Source: a virus
Direction: 5' to 3' (one strand)
Length of the DNA: 64,000 nucleotides
Virus record (IMG/VR): IMGVR_UViG_3300029190_000103
A model generated the notes under the pieces. That model searched no databases, was not told the DNA's origin, and saw only the letters and a list, made by a program, of their open reading frames with translations. The position numbers and the translations under genes are program-made. Below, one piece after another: positions 5,666 to 45,587 of the stretch (its first letter is position 1; every line of letters begins with the position of its first letter).

Positions 5666-6658
5666 TTAATTCTCCTTCCTATACTTTTCCTGAACATATT
5701 TTGTTCTATTCAAGTAATCCTCTAATGTTTCAATGCTTTGTAAACAACCTTTTACTTCTGAGTCTTTCTTTATTCTACATACAACGCACTTACCATTCTT
5801 TAGCAAGTCAATATATTGTGTATACTTGTTTGCGAACACTGTAATATCAAATGTAACATTACCAACACCTAGATTGATGAACGCCATTTTTTTACCTTTG
5901 TTCTTGCCATTCTTAATTACGTTGGTCTTACAGTTGATGATGACTCCACCAACCCAACCTTCTTCTTCAACATTGACCTTATTCCAATCAGGAAGATAAA
6001 CACCTTCAAATGGATTACCAGATAGGTGTACATTCAGTACTTCCATTTCCCAATCTAACTCCGTTCCTTGACAGTATTTATCCTTGAATTTACTCCATTC
6101 TAGGCGCATTCTATGGTCATTGAATATATGTGTACAAAGTTCTTTATCGTCTTGCTGTTCAGGTGTAATAAGCCCCATATCGAACAGCTGTTTAATATTA
6201 GTCTTGTTAGCCTTTTTGATTGGTTTTTTATCTTCTTTGCCAGCATTAAATCTTGCAATAAAGTACTGTTGAAATAAGAACATCTTTCCTTTATTGGTTA
6301 ATGAATCTAACGCACCTGACTTAATCAGAGCAACAACGTCACCTTTATTCATTGTAATTGCTGTTGTCATGAAGTCTGTTATAGATACGAATGGTCTATT
6401 AGCAAGGATTGTTTTTAAACCATTCTCTGTTAGACCTTTAATGGAACCTAAACCAATCAGAATTTCATTATTTCTTTGATTAGGTGTATATGACAATCCA
6501 GAATTGTTGATATCAGGATTGTTTAATTCAAAACCTAATCGCTTTGCTTCTGATAACAATGTTGAGGCTTTATCTGTACCTTCATCCATAATCAGACAAG
6601 CGGTAAGATACTCAATAGGATAATGAACTTTCAGATATGCGGTAAGATATGACAACAA
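5666..6658 (-). CDS. dnaE: DNA polymerase III alpha subunit (DnaE-type), C-terminal segment
   Basis: Begins in the conserved AYLKVHYPIEYL motif. It is in the same frame as 6680-7786 and separated from it only by an in-frame TGA at 6680-6682. Confidence 0.7.
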   Translation of the reverse strand: MLSYLTAYLKVHYPIEYLTACLIMDEGTDKASTLLSEAKRLGFELNNPDINNSGLSYTPNQRNNEILIGLGSIKGLTENGLKTILANRPFVSITDFMTTAITMNKGDVVALIKSGALDSLTNKGKMFLFQQYFIARFNAGKEDKKPIKKANKTNIKQLFDMGLITPEQQDDKELCTHIFNDHRMRLEWSKFKDKYCQGTELDWEMEVLNVHLSGNPFEGVYLPDWNKVNVEEEGWVGGVIINCKTNVIKNGKNKGKKMAFINLGVGNVTFDITVFANKYTQYIDLLKNGKCVVCRIKKDSEVKGCLQSIETLEDYLNRTKYVQEKYRKEN

Positions 6659-6679
6659 AGCATACGCTACAGCGTGTCC

Positions 6680-7786
6680 TCAGGGTCGATTGAAGCAATA
6701 TTCAGACTGTTTTAATAACAAGTTCCAAATGGCTTCAATCTGTTCATCACCCCAATTCCTTTTTCTAAGACCTTCTTCAAACTTAGGTCGTAATGTTCTC
6801 ATTACATTTTCTTTTTTCTTACCAATTGCTCTACGACCAGTTTCTACTTCAACTTCTGGAAAGCCAGCATATCGCAATAATGATAATGCTTGTTCCTGAT
6901 ATAACAATACACAATGAGATTGTTTGAATAATCTCTTTAAATCTGGATGAATGACTGTTATATCGTATGGATGTAATTTATTGTGACAATAATCTGGGAA
7001 GCTGTCCTTAGTACCTGGTCGGTTAGCACTGTTTACAACAATAATATCTTCAATGTTGTCTGTCTTAGCTTCAATAAGCATTCTTCTAGCCTCTGCCGAC
7101 TCCATTTGAAATACGCCTACTGTTTCACCAGTCTTGTATACTTCATCATATACTTTTCTATCATTTAAATCTAAATGGTTTATATCAACATCTTCCCATG
7201 TAATTCCAGCAAACTTTAATGTCATATCTGCAATTGACAAATTCTTTAGCCCAAGTGAGTCCATCTTGATCAGTTTGATATCATCCATTAACGCATGCAT
7301 TTCAGCTTGGTGCATAATTTCGCCATCTTTGTTGTAACAAACAGGACAATATTCTGTTACAGGCTTTGGTGTAACCATGATTGCTGATGCATGACAACCT
7401 CTTGACTTAGGAAGTCCTGATAGCTTTAATGCGTATTCAAACCACATTGGATATTGCTTATACAATTTTTGTAGCTCATCATTACCTTTGATTGCATCCT
7501 TTAGCGATACATCTATCTCAATTTCATTTCCATCTTTATCAACTTTTTTGATAACAGGAATAGTTTTAGATACAAGGTCACGTAATTCAGGTGTAATCAT
7601 TCCTTTATATGGACTATCTTCTTTATCGTTTAGAACACGCCCTATATCTCTGATTGCAACCTTGTTTGAGAACGTATTGAATGTTGAAATATTACATACA
7701 TTTTCTTCTCCAAACAAATCTTTCATTACTTGGATCATATCTCCACGTTTTAATTTATCAACATCATAATCATACACTTTATCCAT
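6680..7786 (-). CDS. dnaE: DNA polymerase III alpha subunit, polymerase core segment (exon 2)
   Basis: DYDVD (PDIDID-like), GCHASAIMV (polymerase core) and ...EYCFNRP (GYAFNKSH-like) motifs. Confidence 0.7.
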   Translation of the reverse strand: MDKVYDYDVDKLKRGDMIQVMKDLFGEENVCNISTFNTFSNKVAIRDIGRVLNDKEDSPYKGMITPELRDLVSKTIPVIKKVDKDGNEIEIDVSLKDAIKGNDELQKLYKQYPMWFEYALKLSGLPKSRGCHASAIMVTPKPVTEYCPVCYNKDGEIMHQAEMHALMDDIKLIKMDSLGLKNLSIADMTLKFAGITWEDVDINHLDLNDRKVYDEVYKTGETVGVFQMESAEARRMLIEAKTDNIEDIIVVNSANRPGTKDSFPDYCHNKLHPYDITVIHPDLKRLFKQSHCVLLYQEQALSLLRYAGFPEVEVETGRRAIGKKKENVMRTLRPKFEEGLRKRNWGDEQIEAIWNLLLKQSEYCFNRP

Positions 7787-8590
7787 TATTTCTAATGGTG
7801 TAGACTATATCTTACCCTACAGCTTTACTGTTTAGGGTGGTGACACTTCCAGCAGTAACCAATCCTCTGCTGTACTCCCTTATGGGATAGTCGTTGCACC
7901 TTTGTTTAAAATAATTTTATATCCATTAGATGTAAAATATTTTCCTAGTGAAGAATAACTTAGCCCTATGGTTTTGCCATACCTACATGCATCACTAATA
8001 GAATTAAATTCTTTCACTAATTTTCCTTCTGGGTTTACCAATGAACACGGTCTAAAATTTCTTATATTGGAACAATATTTAAACGAATGCACCATATTAT
8101 ATTGATGAGTACACCATTCTAAATTTTCGTAATAGTTATTTGTACAATTATGGTCTATGTGATTAATCTCGTCTAACCCTTCAATACGTGGTACAAACGC
8201 TTCTGCGACCAATCTATGTATTAAATAATGTTTTGATTTTCCATCTTTGCATAAATTAACTGAATAATATCTATGCCTATTGTCAATTTTAGACAATGCC
8301 AAAATCTTTTCTGATTTCATTGAGTAAACTCTACCATGGTCTGATATATAATAATCATCAAGACCATTTATTACTTTCCATCTTTCTTTCATTATCCTCC
8401 TTTTTTATTTTAAACACTTGGCACAGGATTGCCTTCACCATAACGTGCTAAGGTTCCCCTGTTAGCTATATCATTGATATAACACCCCTTGGTAATAGGG
8501 TTCATCACCTTAATTATTCGTAATATTTCTACTACGCCAGACAATGACTTATCTGCCAGAGTTCCTTTTCTGCCTATATTTGCAAACCTA
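7787..8590 (-). mobile_element. group-I-like intron carrying an HNH homing endonuclease ORF, inserted in dnaE (boundaries approximate)
   Basis: DnaE homology stops after RFANIGRK (codons near 8565-8590) and resumes at YDYDVD (near 7786-7800); the interval holds a free-standing HNH ORF; the 5-prime intron part is translated in frame after RFANIGRK without DnaE similarity. Confidence 0.55.
7880..8392 (-). CDS. HNH homing endonuclease (intron-encoded)
   Basis: INHIDHNCTNNYYENLEWCT HNH motif, N-terminal NUMOD4-like region; sits between the dnaE segments. Confidence 0.7.
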   Translation of the reverse strand: MKERWKVINGLDDYYISDHGRVYSMKSEKILALSKIDNRHRYYSVNLCKDGKSKHYLIHRLVAEAFVPRIEGLDEINHIDHNCTNNYYENLEWCTHQYNMVHSFKYCSNIRNFRPCSLVNPEGKLVKEFNSISDACRYGKTIGLSYSSLGKYFTSNGYKIILNKGATTIP

Positions 8591-9765
8591 CTAAAGTCCA
8601 ATCCCCAGCGAACACTATCAATTTGCGTTACATTTAACATGAACAGACACAAACAGTTAGCTCCACTACCTCTTGAATACCCTAATGGTATCTTTCTTCT
8701 TCTGCATTCTTCTGAAATCATATTCAGCATGATAAGGTAATCAACAAAGTCAAGTTCCTCCAGTACAGGGATTTCCATTTCAATTCTTTCTCTACGAATT
8801 TGCTGTTCTTCCTCATTCATCCAACCAAACTTTTCATAGAATGTCTTATAACATAAATACCTTAAATATTCTGTACTATTCTTATATTCGCTAGGAACCT
8901 TGATATGTGGCATTTGCGGTTCATTATCTAACCCAACATCTACTTGTTCGCACATATCTACTATCTCTTGTGTAGCTTGCATACCTTGTTTTATAGCACC
9001 AATAGGTAACTGGTTACTCAATATATCCAATACATCTTTTTCATTCTGCATGAAGCAATCAGTGTATTGCTCTGATAATTCTCTATCCATGCTTACTTCA
9101 ACGAACATTGCATGAGAGTCTACATCATCTTTTGCTATCATATGCGCATCAGTTGTAATAACGTATGGGTAATCATATTCAACAGCAAAGTCATATATCA
9201 ATTTATTAGCTTCTAACTGACTTTGAGTACTATGAGATTGAATTTCACAATACACTTTGTCAAATGTATCGTCTAAATCATCCATATACTCCTCAGCTTC
9301 TTCTTCCATACCATTTACTAGGTATTTGCTCAAACGCCCAGCCTGACATGCTGTTAAACAGATTATTCCTCGCCCCCAATCGTTATTCCTAATACGGTTA
9401 ATATCAATTCTTGGTTTTATATATTGACCTTCTGTATTGGCATATGACACGATATCATACAGGTTATGTAAACCAATATTGTTTCTTGCAATTAATAATA
9501 AGTGATATCTTGTTTCTTTATATTCCTTTGTATTGTTCTTAAATGTATCGTCATCAACTTCGTAAATTTCACAAGCAGCTAAACATTTAATACCTTTTTC
9601 TCTTGCTAATCTTTGACTTAAAATAGTAGCTGACATATTTCCATGATCAGAAATGCATACAGCAGACTGACCGTTCTCTACAGCGTATTCTACTATTTGT
9701 TCGACTGTAGCAATAGAATCTAACAATGAATAGCAACTATGCACATGCAAGTTAGAAAATGCCAT
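8410..9765 (-). CDS. dnaE: DNA polymerase III alpha subunit, N-terminal PHP-domain segment (exon 1; true exon end near 8565)
   Basis: LHVHSCYSLLDS PHP motif, GRGSGA...RFANIGRK region. The last roughly 55 codons of the ORF are intron read-through. Confidence 0.7.
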   Translation of the reverse strand: MAFSNLHVHSCYSLLDSIATVEQIVEYAVENGQSAVCISDHGNMSATILSQRLAREKGIKCLAACEIYEVDDDTFKNNTKEYKETRYHLLLIARNNIGLHNLYDIVSYANTEGQYIKPRIDINRIRNNDWGRGIICLTACQAGRLSKYLVNGMEEEAEEYMDDLDDTFDKVYCEIQSHSTQSQLEANKLIYDFAVEYDYPYVITTDAHMIAKDDVDSHAMFVEVSMDRELSEQYTDCFMQNEKDVLDILSNQLPIGAIKQGMQATQEIVDMCEQVDVGLDNEPQMPHIKVPSEYKNSTEYLRYLCYKTFYEKFGWMNEEEQQIRRERIEMEIPVLEELDFVDYLIMLNMISEECRRRKIPLGYSRGSGANCLCLFMLNVTQIDSVRWGLDFSRFANIGRKGTLADKSLSGVVEILRIIKVMNPITKGCYINDIANRGTLARYGEGNPVPSV

Positions 9766-11067: not shown

Positions 11068-12045
11068 CTATATTTTGACCGTATTTTCTTTAGGCAACGG
11101 TATATCCTTTCTCAAATAAAACTGTGCATCATCACATCTTAAATCCCCATAATATCCAAACGGACACCAGCTACAGATGGGGGTTGATTTACTCTCATAG
11201 CTAAGGTTCTCAGGTTGATACATTCGTCTAAATGCCTCAATCAACTCATTATTGATATCCTCAATCGTTCGTTGTTTATCTTTAAGCTGACCTTTTTTAG
11301 CACCAGTCTTGAAGTAAGTTTTATTGGCTACACCATCATTCAGTGCCAATGGTACAACATCCTGCAACTTATCAAAACGTGTGAAGTAATAAGCGCATCT
11401 TGTTGGCAATACTCCAAACTTTTCATAAATGACAAGTGAATATATAGGTAACTGTAAGTTATGTTTAAGTTTTGCTGGTTTAAACAATGACTTACCTGTT
11501 TTATGGTCTATTACGATATATTCACCTGTTTTCTTATCTCTAAGTACCAAGTCAATAAATCCATTCAGGTAGACCTCGTTATATTCCTCATCTGCGAACA
11601 ATACAGTGAATGGAAGATCTACTTTCAATCTGAACTCCATTTCCTGTGCTACAACGTCGCATTTATCTAGTAATTCTGCTAGTTCTCCGTCGCAAGTGAT
11701 AAATCCTTTCATCATCTGTTTGTGCGTTTCTAGCAGTTCACTTTCTGTTTCTTTATCAAAGTACATTTCACGTTTACTTAGATTTTCTTCAACTAAGTCC
11801 TGTACTTCACCTATTGTCCATTGATATCCTTCTGATAATTTCTTACAATACTCTTCAATGCTTGCATGTATCTGTGTCCCAAATTGTGTAGCATCTGAAT
11901 CACTATATTCCCCAAGTCCTAACAAGTATTGATATTTCCATCGACGTGGGCAATCTAAGAAAGTTGACAGCTGTGAATATGACACTGCCAATACTTTCTT
12001 AGTTACTCCATTTATGTCGAACTCTTTGAAGATTTTAGTTTTCAT
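11068..12045 (-). CDS. PD-(D/E)XK nuclease, Cas4/RecB-like exonuclease with a C-terminal Cys cluster
   Basis: YSQLSTFLDCPRRWKYQY N-terminal motif, DLVLRD...VIDHKTGKS catalytic core, C-terminal CSWCPFGYYGDLRC. Confidence 0.65.
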   Translation of the reverse strand: MKTKIFKEFDINGVTKKVLAVSYSQLSTFLDCPRRWKYQYLLGLGEYSDSDATQFGTQIHASIEEYCKKLSEGYQWTIGEVQDLVEENLSKREMYFDKETESELLETHKQMMKGFITCDGELAELLDKCDVVAQEMEFRLKVDLPFTVLFADEEYNEVYLNGFIDLVLRDKKTGEYIVIDHKTGKSLFKPAKLKHNLQLPIYSLVIYEKFGVLPTRCAYYFTRFDKLQDVVPLALNDGVANKTYFKTGAKKGQLKDKQRTIEDINNELIEAFRRMYQPENLSYESKSTPICSWCPFGYYGDLRCDDAQFYLRKDIPLPKENTVKI

Positions 12046-16289: not shown

Positions 16290-17285
16290 TTAAATTTCTT
16301 CTAAATCATCTACTAAGTCAAACATTGCTTCATCATCTAAATCTGCAATGCTATCCTTTTCAACATCTGAATACCTTTCCATTGGAAGCTTTATAACTTC
16401 CACAAATTTATAACATTTGTTATAAACCTTTTGATTTAATATCTTGCCAGCATCGTCATTATCTCCACATACAACTATCTTCACGCCAAGTTTAAGTAGT
16501 AATGTTACCTGTTCTTCCGATACGCTACTTCCCATGCATGCTACAGCATTTTTGTATCCCCATTCATGCAATTTCATTACTGACTTAAACCCTTCAACTA
16601 AGATTACAAATCCATACTTTATAACCTCATTCTTTGCTCGTGAATAATTGAATAATGTCAATGTTTTCTTGGTATCACCAATAATACGATATCTTGGTTC
16701 ACTTCCATCTATTGACCGACCTGAAACGCTTAATATCTGCCCATCTGGACTATCAATTGGGAATGTTATCCTGTCTTTTACTGCACCATCAATTCCAAAC
16801 CCTATATTGAAATAACTAAGTGTTTCGTCTTTGAACCCTTGTTCCAATATGTAAGGATGATGATAGTCAATGATATCGTTCAATATAATTCCTGATACTG
16901 GTTCAATATCTTTATGCTTCTTCTTTTTTTTACTTTTAATAAGTGTGTCTAGCAATTTCATTCTATTCCTAGCTTCTATTTTTTCTTGTGTTATATCAAT
17001 CGCACTATCTTCAAGTTTAACTTTGTTTTTCAACCATTTGACCGCATCACTGTAGTTTAATGATAATTGTTTTTTCACAACGTCAACGATTGTGTACGAT
17101 CTATGACATTCACTGAAACAGTAGAACTTTAAATTCTTATATTTAAGATTGTTCTTGACTCCTCCATGAAACATGCAAGGCATTGACAGCCATTCGTTCT
17201 CTCTAACAAAGTCAATCTCTAAATCATCAAGAATATCCTCAATTACTTCGTCACACTTTTCAATCAATACCTTTGAATCAATCAC
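16290..17285 (-). CDS. DNA primase (DnaG-like: zinc-binding domain plus TOPRIM)
   Basis: N-terminal C/H zinc motif (CMFHGG...CFSECH); TOPRIM region ILVEGFKSVMKLHEWGY...VVCGDNDDAG. Confidence 0.7.
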   Translation of the reverse strand: MIDSKVLIEKCDEVIEDILDDLEIDFVRENEWLSMPCMFHGGVKNNLKYKNLKFYCFSECHRSYTIVDVVKKQLSLNYSDAVKWLKNKVKLEDSAIDITQEKIEARNRMKLLDTLIKSKKKKKHKDIEPVSGIILNDIIDYHHPYILEQGFKDETLSYFNIGFGIDGAVKDRITFPIDSPDGQILSVSGRSIDGSEPRYRIIGDTKKTLTLFNYSRAKNEVIKYGFVILVEGFKSVMKLHEWGYKNAVACMGSSVSEEQVTLLLKLGVKIVVCGDNDDAGKILNQKVYNKCYKFVEVIKLPMERYSDVEKDSIADLDDEAMFDLVDDLEEI

Positions 17286-17290
17286 ATAAG

Positions 17291-17509
17291 TTAGTTCACA
17301 TCCTCATCATCTATTTCTACAACTTCATATCTATGCTTTACAAGTTTGTTATTCTGTAAGCACCGATATATCGTTGTCTTAGATACATCTAAAAACTTAC
17401 ATAGCCCTGACAATCTAAATATGCCCAACACTATATCTTTGTCTTGTGTGTCATATACAGCATAATATTTAGACGTCATCCTCATCTTCCTCGTAAGACT
17501 CATCTTCAA
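17291..17509 (-). CDS. small putative HTH DNA-binding protein
   Basis: LCKFLDVSKTTIYRCLQNN helix-turn-helix-like segment. Confidence 0.35.
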   Translation of the reverse strand: MKMSLTRKMRMTSKYYAVYDTQDKDIVLGIFRLSGLCKFLDVSKTTIYRCLQNNKLVKHRYEVVEIDDEDVN

Positions 17510-18869
17510 GAAGTCCTAACGCATATTGATTGTCAATCGCTTCTTCAAACACTGCCTTACTTTTATCAAATTTGAAATTGATACCTTTGGACTCATCTTC
17601 CATATTTACACCATTACGGTTTTCCTTAACAAATATGTACATGTTTCCGCCAACATCAATTCCTAAATCATCTGCGATCTGTTCTTTTGACTTCTTAACA
17701 AAATAGCAAATGGTTGAGGCATATTGCTTAATCTGATTACTTCCCCAAATTCTTAGTTCGCCTTCAGTTTTTGAGTAGTCTGAGGTCTGAGCCATAGCAA
17801 CTACAGCAAGTTCTAATTCTCCAGCAACTTGATTTTTAAGGAAGTTTGTAAGGTTAGCTAGTTCAGTGTTTTCTTTCTTCTTTTCACTAACATTTTCAAC
17901 CTTCAGATAATCCCACACTACCATTTTCAAGTTAGCTTGTTTCTTTAATCGTTTTATTTCATTGTATACTTCGTTTTGTGACCAACCAGCAGTGTATTGA
18001 TGATAAATCGGACACTCGGATAGCATATCCAATGTTTCGTTGTACTTTTTAACAGCCCATTCATATTTCTTGTAATGACCTTTTTTGATAAAATTAAAGT
18101 TAACATTCATGATTTTAGCAGCTAGTCTTGAAGTGAATGTTTCATCTGTCAACTCGGTATCAACAACTAACATTGGTATTTTGTTTACGACTGAAAGGTT
18201 ATATATCATATCAACAACCCACTGTGATTTACCGAATTTAGCTGGTGCTGAGTAGATTACCAATTCACCAACTTCATATGTAAAGAACTTATCTAGTGTT
18301 TGATATCCTGTTGGGAAACCACTAAATTCTGTAGTTGTATATCTATCAAGTTTCTTGCGTATCTTGTCCATTCTATCGCCAAGTTTTACTATCTTATTTC
18401 CAGCTGTAAAATCACTTCTTACATCCATTAATTGACCTTCTAAGGTGTCATACAGCTCTTTTACGGTCATTTCTTTCTCAGTATCAAGAGTTGTTTGGGC
18501 ATATAGTAAAACATCTCTTAAACGGTCTTTAAAGGCACATTTGATAACGTTATTTACATGAGGTTTCAAGTCATCATATGTGTAATCCTCACCTAATTCT
18601 TGAAGTTTATCTAGGTATTCTATACCGTCATTTTGCTCTAACATTTTATTGTAATCAGCATTTGATGATACAAAGGCAAAGATGTCTGCAATTGATATGC
18701 TTTCGGCTCCACCTTTGTATAAGATGTTAATAACTGTATACAGCATTTTGTCTAACTTGTTACTAAAGTATCCAACTTTTAAATCTTTCAACTCCAACAA
18801 CAAGCTAACATCATTTATCAAAGCACCAATGATGATATCTTCTGAAAGTGATGCTGTATATAAGCGCAT
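17469..18869 (-). CDS. replicative DNA helicase (DnaB-like)
   Basis: N-terminal DnaB-like helical domain, Walker A SAPAKFGKSQWV, RecA-like core; about 466 aa. Confidence 0.7.
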   Translation of the reverse strand: MRLYTASLSEDIIIGALINDVSLLLELKDLKVGYFSNKLDKMLYTVINILYKGGAESISIADIFAFVSSNADYNKMLEQNDGIEYLDKLQELGEDYTYDDLKPHVNNVIKCAFKDRLRDVLLYAQTTLDTEKEMTVKELYDTLEGQLMDVRSDFTAGNKIVKLGDRMDKIRKKLDRYTTTEFSGFPTGYQTLDKFFTYEVGELVIYSAPAKFGKSQWVVDMIYNLSVVNKIPMLVVDTELTDETFTSRLAAKIMNVNFNFIKKGHYKKYEWAVKKYNETLDMLSECPIYHQYTAGWSQNEVYNEIKRLKKQANLKMVVWDYLKVENVSEKKKENTELANLTNFLKNQVAGELELAVVAMAQTSDYSKTEGELRIWGSNQIKQYASTICYFVKKSKEQIADDLGIDVGGNMYIFVKENRNGVNMEDESKGINFKFDKSKAVFEEAIDNQYALGLLEDESYEEDEDDV

Positions 18870-23068: not shown

Positions 23069-24196
23069 CTACGCCTTATATTTTTCAATAAAGCCCATCA
23101 ATGCTTCTGCATTGGTTGTATCTTTAATTTTTTCACTGCCTAGGAATTCTTTAACCTTAGCTTTAGCAACATCTAATCCTTCTGCGGACTTAATTGCCAT
23201 TCTTACAGCTTTAGCTTCTTCACGTAATGTTTCGATATCAGGCATTGGTTTAACATCTTCTTCTGATGATGTTACTTCTTCTTCAATTTCATCCTCATTT
23301 TCCACTTCTGTACCAATTTCTTCGCCTTCATCTTCATCTTCGTCATCTTCTAAACCAACTTTAACTGGTTCTTTGACTGGAAGTTTATTGTTATCAGCAT
23401 TTGGGTTGCTTACATCTCCACCATCATCCTGAATTTTCTGAGTTACACGTACACCTTCATTAAATGCTTCAAGGAATTTATCAACCCCTTCTTCAACATC
23501 ATCAAAGTCAATGTACTCAGGCAATCCATATAATGGAACTTTAAGTTTTAACATAGGATGACCATGCAACCATAAACGTCTGAATTCGTGTTTTTTACCA
23601 TCTTCATCTGTTTCATTAACAACTTCCATATACATAATGAAGTCGCAATCACCCTGAACTAAGTGTTTAATCTGATTGATTGTATCAGGAACAACCTGAT
23701 CATACTCATTACCTGTTGCTGTTGTAATCTTTCTTTGTTTATCATGCGATACAAAGTTGACAATCAACCCCATATTGCGTAAATCACGAATTTCATCTGT
23801 GAATCCTTGTCCAATGACGTTATACTGGTCACCTTTCAATTCATCCCATCCATTTTCATCCATGATATATTTTTTACACATTTTAGCAGCTTCACCAACT
23901 GTATCAATGATAGTACTATCAAATGGTAATGCTTTGCCTTCTTTAATTTGCTTTTTGGTCTGTTTTTTGAACTGAAGGAATTCTTTCCAATTCTTGAATT
24001 GAATTACCTTTAACCCAACTACCGACTTAAATCTATCCTCAAAACCACATGTAAATGTTCTTCCTTGACGTTTCATTAAAGAATTCATAAATGTAGTTTT
24101 TCCAGATCCATCAGTACCAACTAAATTAATACTATAATGGTTGATATTTCCATCAATCGGCTGAACAGCCAATTCCCATAAATTAAAGTTAGACAC
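23069..24196 (-). CDS. RecA-like/AAA ATPase (Sak4-like recombination ATPase) with acidic C-terminal tail
   Basis: Walker A VGTDGSGKTTF; long Asp/Glu-rich C-terminus. Confidence 0.5.
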   Translation of the reverse strand: MSNFNLWELAVQPIDGNINHYSINLVGTDGSGKTTFMNSLMKRQGRTFTCGFEDRFKSVVGLKVIQFKNWKEFLQFKKQTKKQIKEGKALPFDSTIIDTVGEAAKMCKKYIMDENGWDELKGDQYNVIGQGFTDEIRDLRNMGLIVNFVSHDKQRKITTATGNEYDQVVPDTINQIKHLVQGDCDFIMYMEVVNETDEDGKKHEFRRLWLHGHPMLKLKVPLYGLPEYIDFDDVEEGVDKFLEAFNEGVRVTQKIQDDGGDVSNPNADNNKLPVKEPVKVGLEDDEDEDEGEEIGTEVENEDEIEEEVTSSEEDVKPMPDIETLREEAKAVRMAIKSAEGLDVAKAKVKEFLGSEKIKDTTNAEALMGFIEKYKA

Positions 24197-44612: not shown

Positions 44613-45587
44613 TTACTTTACAAACATATTATACATAATTTTGTCCATATTACATTTTGCTATTTTTGAAGCATGAACGTATCTCATTGTGGTAGATCTA
44701 CTGGCATGCCCCATCAACTTTTGCAGTGTATCTTCATCAGCACCATTCTCAATCATTGCTGTAGCAAACGTGTGTCGCAATGTATGAGGATGAATCGTTT
44801 CGTAATCAAGTCCAGCTTTGATGGCCGCATTCTTGACGATTGTATTGATTGTACCCACAGATATTTTTTTACCCTTACTGTCTGGTTGTGTCGTGTGTGA
44901 TACAAACATATACTCGTTTTTATCTTTCCACGTTAGATTTCTTTTTTCAAGATATTCCGTAAGTTGTACGTACAAGTCTTTGTGAATTATTTCAATACGA
45001 ACCTTGTCTCCTTTTCCCTTTGGTTGGATTACATATGACTCATCACTCTTGAAAATATCCCCAACTTTTAAATCTGTTATCTCAGCACGTCGCATTCCTG
45101 TAGTTAGCATTAGAGTGACAATGATCGTGTTACGGAAACCAGCGATACCTTTTGACATTCCAGCACCTTGTATCAGCCTTCTGCCTTCCTCGATGGATAA
45201 TGCCCTATCCTGACTAAATTCTGATATTGCATTCTTGTATCTGTAACATCCTTCGTCTGTTGATATTGGATTATAGTCCATGACACCAACTGATTTACGT
45301 GACAAGAACTTGTAAAAACTGTTTAGGGCAGCAAGCTTTGCATTTACTGTAGCACGCTTCATTCCCTTTTTAATTTGTTCTGAACTCCAATCGTTGACAA
45401 TTTCAGGTGTTACGCTTCTGATATCTTCCAGCGTAATGTCTTTACTGCTTTTCTTGTTGAAGAACTGCAAGATTGAGCGTGCATAACTATCTTTGGTTTT
45501 ATCTGAAAGATTGTTTGTGTACATGTCTGCATAATTAATTTCGTTAGCTTTTCCTACTTGTGTATCGTTTAACATTATCTGTTTCAT
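44613..45587 (-). CDS. int: tyrosine recombinase / phage integrase (XerC/D family)
   Basis: C-terminal HTLRHTFATAMIENGADEDTLQKLMGHASRSTTMRYVH (R..H..Y catalytic box); N-terminal SAM-like core-binding domain. Confidence 0.8.
   Translation of the reverse strand: MKQIMLNDTQVGKANEINYADMYTNNLSDKTKDSYARSILQFFNKKSSKDITLEDIRSVTPEIVNDWSSEQIKKGMKRATVNAKLAALNSFYKFLSRKSVGVMDYNPISTDEGCYRYKNAISEFSQDRALSIEEGRRLIQGAGMSKGIAGFRNTIIVTLMLTTGMRRAEITDLKVGDIFKSDESYVIQPKGKGDKVRIEIIHKDLYVQLTEYLEKRNLTWKDKNEYMFVSHTTQPDSKGKKISVGTINTIVKNAAIKAGLDYETIHPHTLRHTFATAMIENGADEDTLQKLMGHASRSTTMRYVHASKIAKCNMDKIMYNMFVK

What the first reader, a model, noticed from the sequence alone, without database searches (positions are those of the whole stretch)
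6659..6700. Single in-frame TGA inside a conserved DnaE motif (FNRP-TGA-GHAVAYALLSYLTAYLKVHYP)
The polymerase core ORF ends at a TGA at 6680-6682. The next ORF continues in the same frame 21 nt later. Reading through the stop gives ...EYCFNRP*GHAVAYALLSYLTAYLKVHYP, which aligns with the universally conserved DnaE segment GYGFNKSH-AAYALL-YQTAYLKAHYP. An essential gene therefore carries an internal stop codon. TGA is a genuine stop elsewhere in the window (for example the methyltransferase gene ends with TGA), so a genome-wide code-4 reassignment is unlikely. The candidates are programmed read-through or suppression (context UGA-G), selenocysteine-independent recoding, a very short translational bypass (CCC UGA GGA), a sequencing error, or a polymerase pseudogene in a decaying element.
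Basis: seen in the sequence. Interest (0 to 1): 0.6.

Follow-up and report, generated by a model that had tools for sequence, protein, structure and literature searches.

The report
Stop-containing mini-insert in phage DNA polymerase
A temperate gut phage carries a stable 6-base insert with a stop codon in the most conserved motif of its own DNA polymerase gene, and because the gene has stayed under selection the ribosome probably gets past the insert, which would be a rare natural case of translational recoding.

Summary
The gene is on the minus strand. The TGA (6682..6680) does not replace a sense codon. It is the second half of a 6-nt insert, CCC TGA (6685..6680), between invariant Arg and Gly of the DnaE motif FNR|GH.

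It is not a sequencing error. The same allele occurs on at least 20 contigs from independent runs and in Erysipelotrichaceae isolate genomes.

It is not a decaying pseudogene. A 5.7% diverged relative carries the identical insert, and the part downstream of the stop differs by 53 synonymous and 8 non-synonymous codons.

Two other phage lineages (75% identical) carry 7-nt, frame-shifting inserts with TGA at the same junction. One is listed in 191 blocks of the assembly collection. In other relatives the same spot holds group I introns or an HNH intein.

Best reading: a minimal insert at a homing hotspot that ribosomes get past. Either peptidyl-tRNA-Arg hops 6-7 nt, or the window's slow Pro-UGA is read through. 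This works like T4 gene 60 but is far shorter. The mechanism is inferred, not shown.

The main rival is a polymerase made as two polypeptides. The upstream interruption of the gene is a group I intron with an HNH endonuclease.

The parts
8551..9765 (-). dnaE exon 1 (PHP domain and the N-terminal part of the palm). Homology to uninterrupted DnaE ends at ...GRKGTLAD.
   Evidence: Pfam PHP and DNA_pol3_alpha positions 1-99. Comparison with Amboise DnaE. Coordinates.
7775..8550 (-). Group I intron (776 nt) splitting the catalytic ADYDxD motif. It carries an HNH/NUMOD4 homing-endonuclease ORF at 8392..7880.
   Evidence: Rfam Intron_gpI 28 bits (E=1.4e-4) at 7782-8009 and 18.8 bits at 8373-8462, both below the gathering score of 50. 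The exon ends in U and the intron ends in G. Relatives L152 and L173 have an intron at the same site scoring 53 and 52 bits. HNH_3 and NUMOD4 in Pfam, phrog_59 at 2e-39. Intron-less relatives L192 and L194 read straight through.
6686..7774 (-). dnaE exon 2 (rest of the palm, thumb, most of the fingers), ending ...YCFNR. The last codon, CGA (6688..6686), is the candidate take-off codon.
   Evidence: Pfam, translation, joined product of 1105 aa. CGA is 43 of 645 Arg codons.
6680..6685 (-). The 6-nt insert CCC TGA: a rare Pro codon followed by the in-frame stop. It lies between invariant R367 and G368/H369.
   Evidence: Absent from Amboise, L005/L088 and 160 other loci. Identical in L002-L004, L192/L193 and L194-L196. 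CCC is 16 of 398 Pro codons.
5666..6679 (-). Remainder of dnaE (end of the fingers helix GHAVAYALLSYLTAYLKVHYP, then the HhH and OB domains), in frame with exon 2. The stop is at 5668..5666.
   Evidence: Pfam HHH_6 and OB. 53 synonymous against 8 non-synonymous codon differences from insert-bearing L192.
6653..6658 (-). Two tandem TTG codons, the only candidate restart codons for a separate C-terminal polypeptide.
   Evidence: the ORF listing start at 6658. GenBank RHU03258.1 starts at the second TTG. The second TTG is CTG in L192. The nearest SD-like GAGGA lies 18 nt upstream of the first TTG (sequence).
6688..6740 (-). A 9-bp perfect inverted repeat, GATTGAAGC (6740..6732) and GCTTCAATC (6696..6688). 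It could form an mRNA hairpin whose 3' arm ends on the first base of the Arg codon.
   Evidence: strand folding: -27.9 kcal/mol, z = -2.7. The same outer stem is predicted in L183, L006 and the insert-less L005, but not in L181. No covariation is available, so its role is unproven.

Best explanation
The window is a temperate Erysipelotrichaceae phage that encodes its own replisome. Its DnaE gene carries two selfish-element features: a group I intron with an HNH endonuclease, and 1.1 kb downstream a 6-nt insert (CCC TGA) between the invariant Arg and Gly of the FNR|GH motif. In relatives, introns and an intein home to that same spot.

Shown: the insert is a stably inherited allele, not an error and not decay. 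The coding sequence on both sides stays under purifying selection.

Inferred: full-length DnaE is still made because some ribosomes get past the insert.

My preferred mechanism is a short translational hop. Peptidyl-tRNA-Arg (anticodon ICG) leaves CGA while the ribosome waits on the rare CCC codon. The mRNA slips 6 nt and the tRNA re-pairs with UGA (G.U, C:G, I:A). Decoding resumes at GGA and restores FNR-GH exactly. Ribosomes that do not hop decode CCC and then terminate slowly at Pro-UGA.

The same scheme fits the 7-nt relatives: CGC UGA C CGA and CGC UGA C UGU. The alternative within the same idea is UGA read-through in the window, giving FNR-Pro-X-GH, and a +1 frameshift at CGC_UGA_C in the relatives.

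The insert probably persists because it splits a homing-endonuclease target, as an intron, an intein or the T4 gene 60 gap does.
For: 1. The allele is real and widespread. The exact N-terminal product is on at least 20 contigs from independent runs, some of 0.2-1 Mb. It is in NCBI as DAZ41303.1, and the insert-bearing split form in isolate genomes is annotated WP_118667429.1 and WP_147351188.1.
2. The allele is old and selected. L192/L193 differ from the window at 191 of 3324 nt and carry the identical CCCTGA. Codon differences are 93 synonymous to 22 non-synonymous upstream and 53 to 8 downstream. Divergence does not dip around the insert.
3. Independent lineages are interrupted at the same junction: L006 (TGACTGT) and L007/L183 (TGACCGA). 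L007-type is listed in 191 blocks of the collection, with contigs up to 76.7 kb. L006-type variants keep the insert, with downstream synonymous to non-synonymous counts of 16:3, 21:8 and 19:8.
4. L007-type has no in-frame ATG, GTG or TTG for 25 codons after the insert, and those codons encode the most conserved motif of the family. Ribosomes must therefore arrive from upstream in the +1 frame.
5. All three triplets preceding GGN (UGA, UGU, CGA) can pair with a tRNA-Arg ICG anticodon (sequence; pairing rules from general knowledge).
6. All three inserts contain a stop. If a 2-residue insertion were tolerated, a sense version would give full expression, so retention of the stop argues that it is part of the mechanism.
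7. CCC_UGA is a documented slow-terminating site prone to frameshifting and read-through (PMC3082878).
8. 160 of the surveyed loci have the uninterrupted junction, and no other short insert was found among 180 loci.
9. The AlphaFold model puts the junction at the first turn of helix 367-386, between invariant R367 and H369.
10. The site is a hotspot: group I introns after GH and an HNH intein at FNR|SH.
Against: There is no protein or ribosome data, so every mechanistic step is inferred.

In the window the take-off codon is not followed directly by the stop, and the proposed landing triplet is the stop itself with a G.U first-position pair. This is an unusual arrangement.

Given that a TGA is present, the landing-triplet match is only weakly significant, roughly 0.004-0.05 by my estimate.

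Short hops measured in synthetic constructs are inefficient.

No upstream SD-like stimulator is present. The upstream hairpin also occurs in the insert-less L005 allele.

The window and L006 do have in-frame TTG or GTG codons shortly after the stop, so a two-polypeptide polymerase is possible there.

No endonuclease has been shown to cut this site. L183 has no recognisable endonuclease gene next to dnaE.

Each 7-nt lineage is nearly clonal, so its age is less certain than that of the window lineage.
Confidence: 0.55

Rival explanations
1. Split polymerase. Translation ends at the TGA and a second polypeptide starts nearby: TTG 6658 in the window, GTG in L006. The two fragments assemble into an active DnaE without being joined, as in genes split by homing endonucleases.
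For: Gene callers and the GenBank/RefSeq annotations treat it as two genes. The window has an in-frame TTG 21 nt after the stop, and L006 a GTG 13 nt after it. Purifying selection on the C part is equally expected under this reading. There is precedent for endonuclease-split genes whose halves associate, such as T4 genes 39/60 and the split NrdA case (bioRxiv 10.1101/2022.08.31.505936).
Against: L007/L183, the most abundant lineage, has no in-frame start for 25 codons. It would lose GHAVAYGLLSYLTAYLKTHYPVEF, the best conserved stretch of the family. The restart points would differ in all three lineages, and each would cut the same helix. There is no SD at a usable distance from the TTG. The second TTG, used in the GenBank RHU03258.1 annotation, is CTG in L192. 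No added tails of the kind seen in endonuclease-split genes are present.
Confidence: 0.25
2. Tolerated damage. The insert is a scar at an endonuclease cleavage hotspot that inactivates dnaE. The prophage survives by vertical inheritance or by using host polymerase.
For: The window-type element is a prophage, with an integrase and contigs up to 455 kb in isolate genomes. The site is a target for mobile elements. Several endonuclease genes lie in or next to dnaE.
Against: The insert persists over 5.7% divergence with synonymous to non-synonymous counts of 93:22 upstream and 53:8 downstream, and with no further stops or frameshifts. Three lineages all carry a TGA, where random indels would be expected. 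L007-type is found in 191 blocks, mostly as phage-sized contigs and never above 200 kb.
Confidence: 0.1
3. Reassigned or specially decoded TGA: genetic code 4 or 25, selenocysteine, or a phage suppressor tRNA.
For: Erysipelotrichaceae are relatives of the Mollicutes, which read UGA as Trp (general knowledge). The window reads through in frame.
Against: 15 of 87 genes end in TGA, and only this gene merges when TGA is treated as sense. No tRNA gene is in the 64 kb window. No SECIS or other Rfam family hits near the site at E<=1. The 7-nt relatives cannot be rescued by reading TGA as sense.
Confidence: 0.03
4. Sequencing or assembly error.
For: None beyond prior expectation for a lone internal stop.
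Against: The same 6 nt are found in assemblies from many independent runs and in three sequence backgrounds. A 6-nt non-homopolymer insertion is not a typical error.
Confidence: 0.01

Closest known systems
Phage T4 gene 60 translational bypass with the MobA homing endonuclease cassette
   Same: A non-coding insert containing a stop lies inside an essential phage DNA-metabolism gene, at a homing-endonuclease target. There the insert protects against cleavage and is skipped by ribosomes: the peptidyl-tRNA leaves a take-off codon and re-pairs downstream (PMC5009743; bioRxiv 10.1101/2022.08.31.505936). In L006 and L007 the stop follows the take-off codon directly, as in gene 60.
   Different: The gap here is 6-7 nt, against 50 nt in T4 (20 nt in the shortest known clade). 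There is no room for a take-off stem-loop in the gap, no homology to the gene 60 cassette, and no linked MobA-type gene shown to cut here. Take-off and landing codons match only by wobble in the window. Bypass is not demonstrated.
Synthetic 'stop-hops' in E. coli (Weiss et al. 1987, as reviewed in PMC5009743)
   Same: Matched codons flank a stop, so that about 9 nt specify one amino acid. L007's CGC UGA C CGA is this arrangement with one extra base.
   Different: Those were engineered, low-efficiency events. The review states that no natural in-frame stop-hop is known. Here the sequence is natural and evolutionarily maintained.
CCC_UGA 'shifty stop' and Pro-stop slow termination (E. coli pheL, Listeria phage tail genes)
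   Same: The window has exactly CCC_UGA. This sequence terminates slowly and is prone to +1 frameshifting, read-through and tmRNA tagging (PMC3082878).
   Different: In the window the +1 frame closes after 4 codons (GAG GAC ACG CTG TAG). The documented use of this motif, +1 frameshifting, is therefore unproductive here. Only read-through or a hop would help.
prfB (RF2) +1 programmed frameshift, CUU UGA C
   Same: L006 and L007 have sense codon-UGA-C with the productive frame at +1. UGA followed by C is a weak stop context (general knowledge).
   Different: There is no upstream SD stimulator. tRNA-Arg cannot re-pair at +1 (GCU). The window allele is in frame and cannot use this route.
Cyanobacterial split DnaE intein, and inteins or introns in DnaE
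   Same: The region is the same. From memory, the Ssp DnaE intein sits at EY|CFNK, three residues upstream. Here relatives carry an HNH intein at FNR|SH and group I introns after FNRGH.
   Different: The window has no intein or intron sequence at this site, only 6 nt. Nothing can splice at the RNA or protein level.
'Savior indel' with compensatory low-level recoding (HSV thymidine kinase)
   Same: A disabling indel is kept because it gives protection, while rare recoding supplies enough product (PMC5009743).
   Different: That is a homopolymer frameshift selected under drug treatment. Here the presumed benefit, endonuclease resistance, is untested.

Membership tests
Programmed translational bypassing (gene 60 type) | [quoted passage not shown] | tested here: inconclusive
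   L007: CGC to CGA, both Arg and both readable by ICG. L006: CGC to UGU. Window: CGA to UGA. The last two need a G.U first-position pair. The host tRNA set is not known.
Programmed translational bypassing (gene 60 type) | [quoted passage not shown] | tested here: inconclusive
   Met in L006 and L007 (CGC UGA). In the window a rare CCC lies between CGA and UGA.
Programmed translational bypassing (gene 60 type) | Take-off stem-loop within the coding gap, and a nascent-peptide signal | tested here: not met
   A 6-7 nt gap cannot hold a stem-loop. An upstream hairpin exists but is also present in an insert-less allele. A nascent-peptide effect cannot be tested.
Programmed translational bypassing (gene 60 type) | A single polypeptide lacking the residues encoded by the gap | not testable with these tools
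   Needs mass spectrometry of the junction peptide.
Programmed stop-codon read-through | Downstream ORF in the same frame, conserved and under purifying selection | tested here: met
   The frame is continuous. Codon differences from insert-bearing L192 are 53 synonymous to 8 non-synonymous.
Programmed stop-codon read-through | The same mechanism accounts for the homologous interruptions in relatives | tested here: not met
   The L006 and L007 inserts are 7 nt long. Reading through their TGA hits another stop within 8-17 codons.
+1 programmed frameshift at a shifty stop | The +1 frame is open and encodes the rest of the protein | tested here: not met
   Window: CCC U GAG GAC ACG CTG TAG closes after 4 codons. 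The feature is met in L006 and L007 only.
Pseudogene or decaying prophage gene | Relaxed selection (dN/dS near 1) and accumulation of further disabling mutations | tested here: not met
   Synonymous to non-synonymous counts are 93:22 and 53:8, with no further stops or frameshifts over 5.7% divergence. L006-type gives 16:3 to 21:8.
Selenocysteine recoding | A bacterial SECIS hairpin directly downstream of UGA | tested here: not met
   No Rfam hit at E<=1 in 6400-8700. The downstream sequence is the same in the insert-less allele L005.
Alternative genetic code (TGA as sense) | TGA not used as a terminator, and many in-frame TGAs within genes | tested here: not met
   15 of 87 genes end in TGA. 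Removing TGA as a stop merges only this gene.
Group I intron (the upstream interruption, 8550..7775) | Catalytic core that matches the family model, U at the 5' splice site, G at the 3' end, and exons that join in frame | tested here: inconclusive
   Rfam gives 28 and 18.8 bits, below the gathering score of 50. Boundaries and the joined reading frame fit. A homologous-site intron in L152 and L173 scores 52-53 bits. Intron-less alleles exist.

The most novel reading that the evidence does not exclude
These 6-7 nt inserts are natural 'translational mini-introns'. Peptidyl-tRNA-Arg hops over a stop-containing insert and restores the invariant FNR-GH motif of DnaE. The insert is maintained, and moved between phages, because it breaks a homing-endonuclease target. 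This would be the first natural short stop-hop, and a second, independent and much smaller counterpart of the T4 gene 60 bypass.
Probability: 0.3. Interest if true: 0.9.

Novelty: new variant of a known kind. Interest (0 to 1): 0.75.

Why it matters
Natural translational bypassing is known from very few systems: T4 gene 60 and its relatives, and certain yeast mitochondria. The field's main review states that no natural in-frame stop-hop is known. Here an essential replication gene keeps a stop-containing insert under purifying selection in three phage lineages. One is common in human gut samples and one sits in cultured Erysipelotrichaceae isolates, so the question can be tested directly by inducing a lysogen and sequencing the junction peptide.

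Whatever the outcome (hop, read-through plus frameshift, or a split polymerase), it bears on how phages neutralise homing endonucleases with the smallest possible insert.

It also has a practical consequence. Current annotation, including in RefSeq, calls these two unrelated genes.

Tried and rejected
- Near-identity DNA search of the phage collection found nothing.
- Exact 32-mer scans of the viral and genome collections found nothing.
- Degenerate pattern scans of the viral collection for other short inserts returned only unrelated proteins containing GHAVAY.
- A search of 1.84 billion representative proteins with the last 150 residues of exon 2 found no further short-insert alleles in the top 150. 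It found only proteins that read into an intron after FNRGH.
- Rfam at gathering threshold found nothing in the whole window.
- No tRNA genes are present.
- Folding around the junction gave no structure shared by, and specific to, the interrupted alleles. The upstream hairpin is also in the insert-less L005.
- I looked for an endonuclease gene linked to the insert in every lineage. The window has one in the intron and L006 has a free-standing HNH-AP2 gene upstream of dnaE, but L183 has none nearby. No consistent cassette emerged.
- I considered the insert as a leftover of an imprecisely deleted intein or intron. The 6-7 nt do not resemble either element's ends, and the intron site is 6 nt further downstream.
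- I considered a duplication of neighbouring sequence and found no repeat.
- I considered RNA-level repair by the neighbouring RNA ligase. The window lacks that gene (compare).
- The literature search for UGA read-through in Bacillus gave no usable source. My statement that UGA is leaky in Firmicutes therefore rests on memory only.

Full report
**1. What is in the sequence**

The gene lies on the minus strand. ORF 7786..6680 (368 aa) ends ...LLKQSEYCFNRP-TGA. The same frame continues GHAVAYALLSYLTAYLKVHYP... down to 5666. Pfam finds the DnaE palm and fingers before the stop and HHH_6/OB after it. A further piece, 9765..8410, carries the PHP domain and the start of the palm.

The standard code accounts for the window, and treating TGA as sense merges only this gene. 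Of 87 predicted genes, 15 end in TGA. There are no tRNA genes and no Rfam family at gathering threshold.

**2. The stop is part of a 6-nt insert**

The closest annotated relative is Clostridium phage Amboise (62% identity). Its DnaE is one 1107-aa ORF reading FNRGHAVAY. Codon by codon, the window has AAT CGA [CCC TGA] GGA CAC where Amboise has AAC AGA GGT CAT. A protein 99% identical to my 'repaired' sequence exists in public assemblies (P0001). Its DNA (L005, L088) reads AAT CGT GGA CAC.

The junction was uninterrupted at 160 sites in a survey of 180 loci from viral, metagenome and genome collections, and no other short insert was found. F365, N366, R367 and H369 are invariant. An AlphaFold model puts the junction at the first turn of helix 367-386.

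**3. The upstream interruption is a group I intron**

Homology to Amboise breaks at ...GTLAD (8551) and resumes at YDYDVD (7774). This splits the catalytic motif. The 776 nt between them hold an HNH/NUMOD4 ORF. They give sub-threshold Intron_gpI hits.

Relatives have a clear intron at the same site, and intron-less alleles also exist. Joining the exons and removing the 6 nt gives a 1105-aa DnaE.

**4. Not an error**

The exact 368-aa product is on at least 20 contigs from independent runs, some of 0.2-1 Mb. It is in NCBI as DAZ41303.1. The insert-bearing split form is also annotated in Erysipelotrichaceae isolates, Absiella sp. AM27-20 among them (WP_118667429.1 and WP_147351188.1).

**5. Not decay**

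L192/L193, from two further runs, are intron-less and differ from the window at 191 of 3324 nt. They carry the identical CCCTGA. Codon differences are 93 synonymous to 22 non-synonymous before the insert and 53 to 8 after it. Divergence does not dip around the insert, so it was not recently copied between the two.

The Absiella-type allele (L194) also has the insert and lacks the intron.
- The window equals L194 in exon 2, the insert and the C part, but differs at 43 sites on the exon 1 side.
- The window equals L005 in exon 1 and the intron, but differs at 51 sites from the intron boundary to 135 nt past the insert.

The simplest history is as follows. The insert-bearing, intron-less form is ancestral. 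The intron then homed in from an insert-less donor. A short co-conversion tract produced the window, which kept the insert. A long tract produced L005, which lost it.

**6. The same junction is interrupted in other lineages**

Two phages about 75% identical in exon 2 read as follows.
- L006: TTC AAT CGC [TGACTGT] GGA CAC
- L007/L183: TTC AAT CGC [TGACCGA] GGC/GGA CAT

Each has a 7-nt insert with TGA directly after the Arg codon, and the rest of the gene is in the +1 frame.

L007-type is listed in 191 blocks of the collection, mostly as 50-77 kb contigs and never above 200 kb. L006-type has several variants that all keep the insert, with downstream synonymous to non-synonymous counts of 16:3, 21:8 and 19:8.

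The interrupted alleles are not a clade. L007 is closer to the uninterrupted P0006 and P0007 than to L006. Yet in the ~100 nt upstream of the insert the three interrupted alleles group together, while identity between L007 and its nearest relative drops. All three encode W-G-DEQIEAIWNLLLKQS, whereas the uninterrupted window-type variants have W-N-DEQ. This suggests that the insert has moved with some flanking sequence, although phage mosaicism in general could give a similar picture.

**7. The site is a hotspot for mobile elements**

Relatives carry an HNH intein at FNR|SH (P0011 and P0013). Others carry group I introns directly after FNRGH (L151-L155, L173, L174, P0203, P0212). In these introns P1 is formed by the GH codons. 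HNH endonuclease genes sit in or beside dnaE in the window, L006 and L181.

**8. How it probably works**

Three observations mean the downstream part must be translated from ribosomes coming across the insert, at least in L007-type.
- Selection on the downstream part.
- The lack of any in-frame start for 25 codons in L007-type.
- The fact that those codons encode the family's best conserved motif.

One mechanism fits all three lineages: a hop by peptidyl-tRNA-Arg. The take-off codons are CGA or CGC. The triplet just before GGN is UGA, UGU or CGA. All of these can pair with an ICG anticodon, and the product would be the native FNR-GH.

This would also explain why every insert keeps a stop. Ribosomes that fail to hop terminate, instead of making a polymerase with two extra residues between invariant positions.

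The alternative is lineage-specific: read-through of the slow Pro-UGA in the window (PMC3082878), and a +1 shift at CGC_UGA_C in the others. Each would add two residues. In the window the +1 frame closes after four codons, so the well-known CCC_UGA frameshift is not productive.

The closest parallel for the benefit of the insert is T4 gene 60, whose gap protects against MobA (PMC5009743; bioRxiv 10.1101/2022.08.31.505936). That role is untested here.

**9. Rivals**

A two-polypeptide polymerase is the main rival. It is possible for the window (TTG at 6658) and for L006 (GTG), but fits L007 poorly. A tolerated dead gene is contradicted by the selection data. A code change and selenocysteine are contradicted. 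Sequencing error is excluded.

**10. Verdict**

It is one of a small family of stop-containing 6-7 nt inserts, kept under selection at a homing hotspot of phage DnaE. Recoding is the best-supported reading (about 0.55), and within it I favour a short hop (about 0.3). I rate it a new variant of a known kind, with interest 0.75.

Noticed in passing
window 7775-8550 (minus strand): A group I intron of 776 nt with an HNH/NUMOD4 homing-endonuclease ORF (8392..7880) splits dnaE inside the catalytic ADYDxD motif. The ATG at 7786 that gene callers use lies inside the intron.
   Followed up: yes
window 6545-7790 against L005; exon 1 against L194: All 51 differences from L005 within dnaE (of 53 over 8.1 kb) lie between the intron boundary and 135 nt past the insert. 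All 43 differences from L194 lie on the exon 1 side. This pattern is typical of intron homing with co-conversion tracts of different lengths, one of which erased the insert.
   Followed up: yes
window 6688-6740 (minus strand): A perfect 9-bp inverted repeat, GATTGAAGC and GCTTCAATC, has its 3' arm ending on the first base of the Arg codon before the insert. The predicted hairpin has z = -2.7. It is also present in L183, L006 and the insert-less L005. Its role is unknown; it could be a bypass driver, an endonuclease site or chance.
   Followed up: partly
L151, L152, L153, L155, L173, L174 at about 3586 onward; P0203, P0212; P0011, P0013: The same FNR-GH spot holds group I introns (inserted after the GH codons, with P1 formed by GGGCAU and GUGCCC) in several clades, and an HNH intein at FNR|SH in another clade.
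   Followed up: partly
L006 4286-4981; L181 2504-3001: Free-standing HNH endonuclease genes lie directly upstream of dnaE. The one in L006 matches phrog_374 at 7.5e-44 and has a weak AP2 domain. Whether either cuts the FNR-GH site is unknown.
   Followed up: no
window 6743-6745 (codon GGT, minus strand) and the equivalent codon in L006, L007 and P0182-P0192: All three interrupted lineages encode Trp-Gly-Asp-Glu-Gln 21 codons upstream of the insert. Every uninterrupted window-type variant has Trp-Asn there, a two-base change. This could be linkage through co-transfer, or a functional requirement of the nascent peptide.
   Followed up: no
window 44616-45587, 16293-18869, 11071-12045, 23072-24196: The window is a temperate phage with an integrase and its own replication module: DnaB-like helicase, primase, exonuclease and a Sak4-like annealing protein. 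Hosts named in public records are Erysipelotrichaceae (Absiella sp. AM27-20, [Eubacterium] hominis).
   Followed up: partly
window 6689-6700 (YCFN codons): The Cys in EYCFNR recalls the CFNK C-extein of the cyanobacterial split DnaE intein, which from memory sits three residues upstream of this junction. It may be a relic of past intein occupancy.
   Followed up: no
GenBank/RefSeq records RHU03258.1, RHU03259.1, WP_118667429.1, WP_147351188.1, DAZ41302-DAZ41304: Public annotation lists the pieces of this polymerase as separate, unrelated proteins ('DNA polymerase III subunit alpha', 'helix-hairpin-helix domain-containing protein', 'PHP domain-containing protein'). Neither the insert nor the intron is noted in those protein names.
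   Followed up: no
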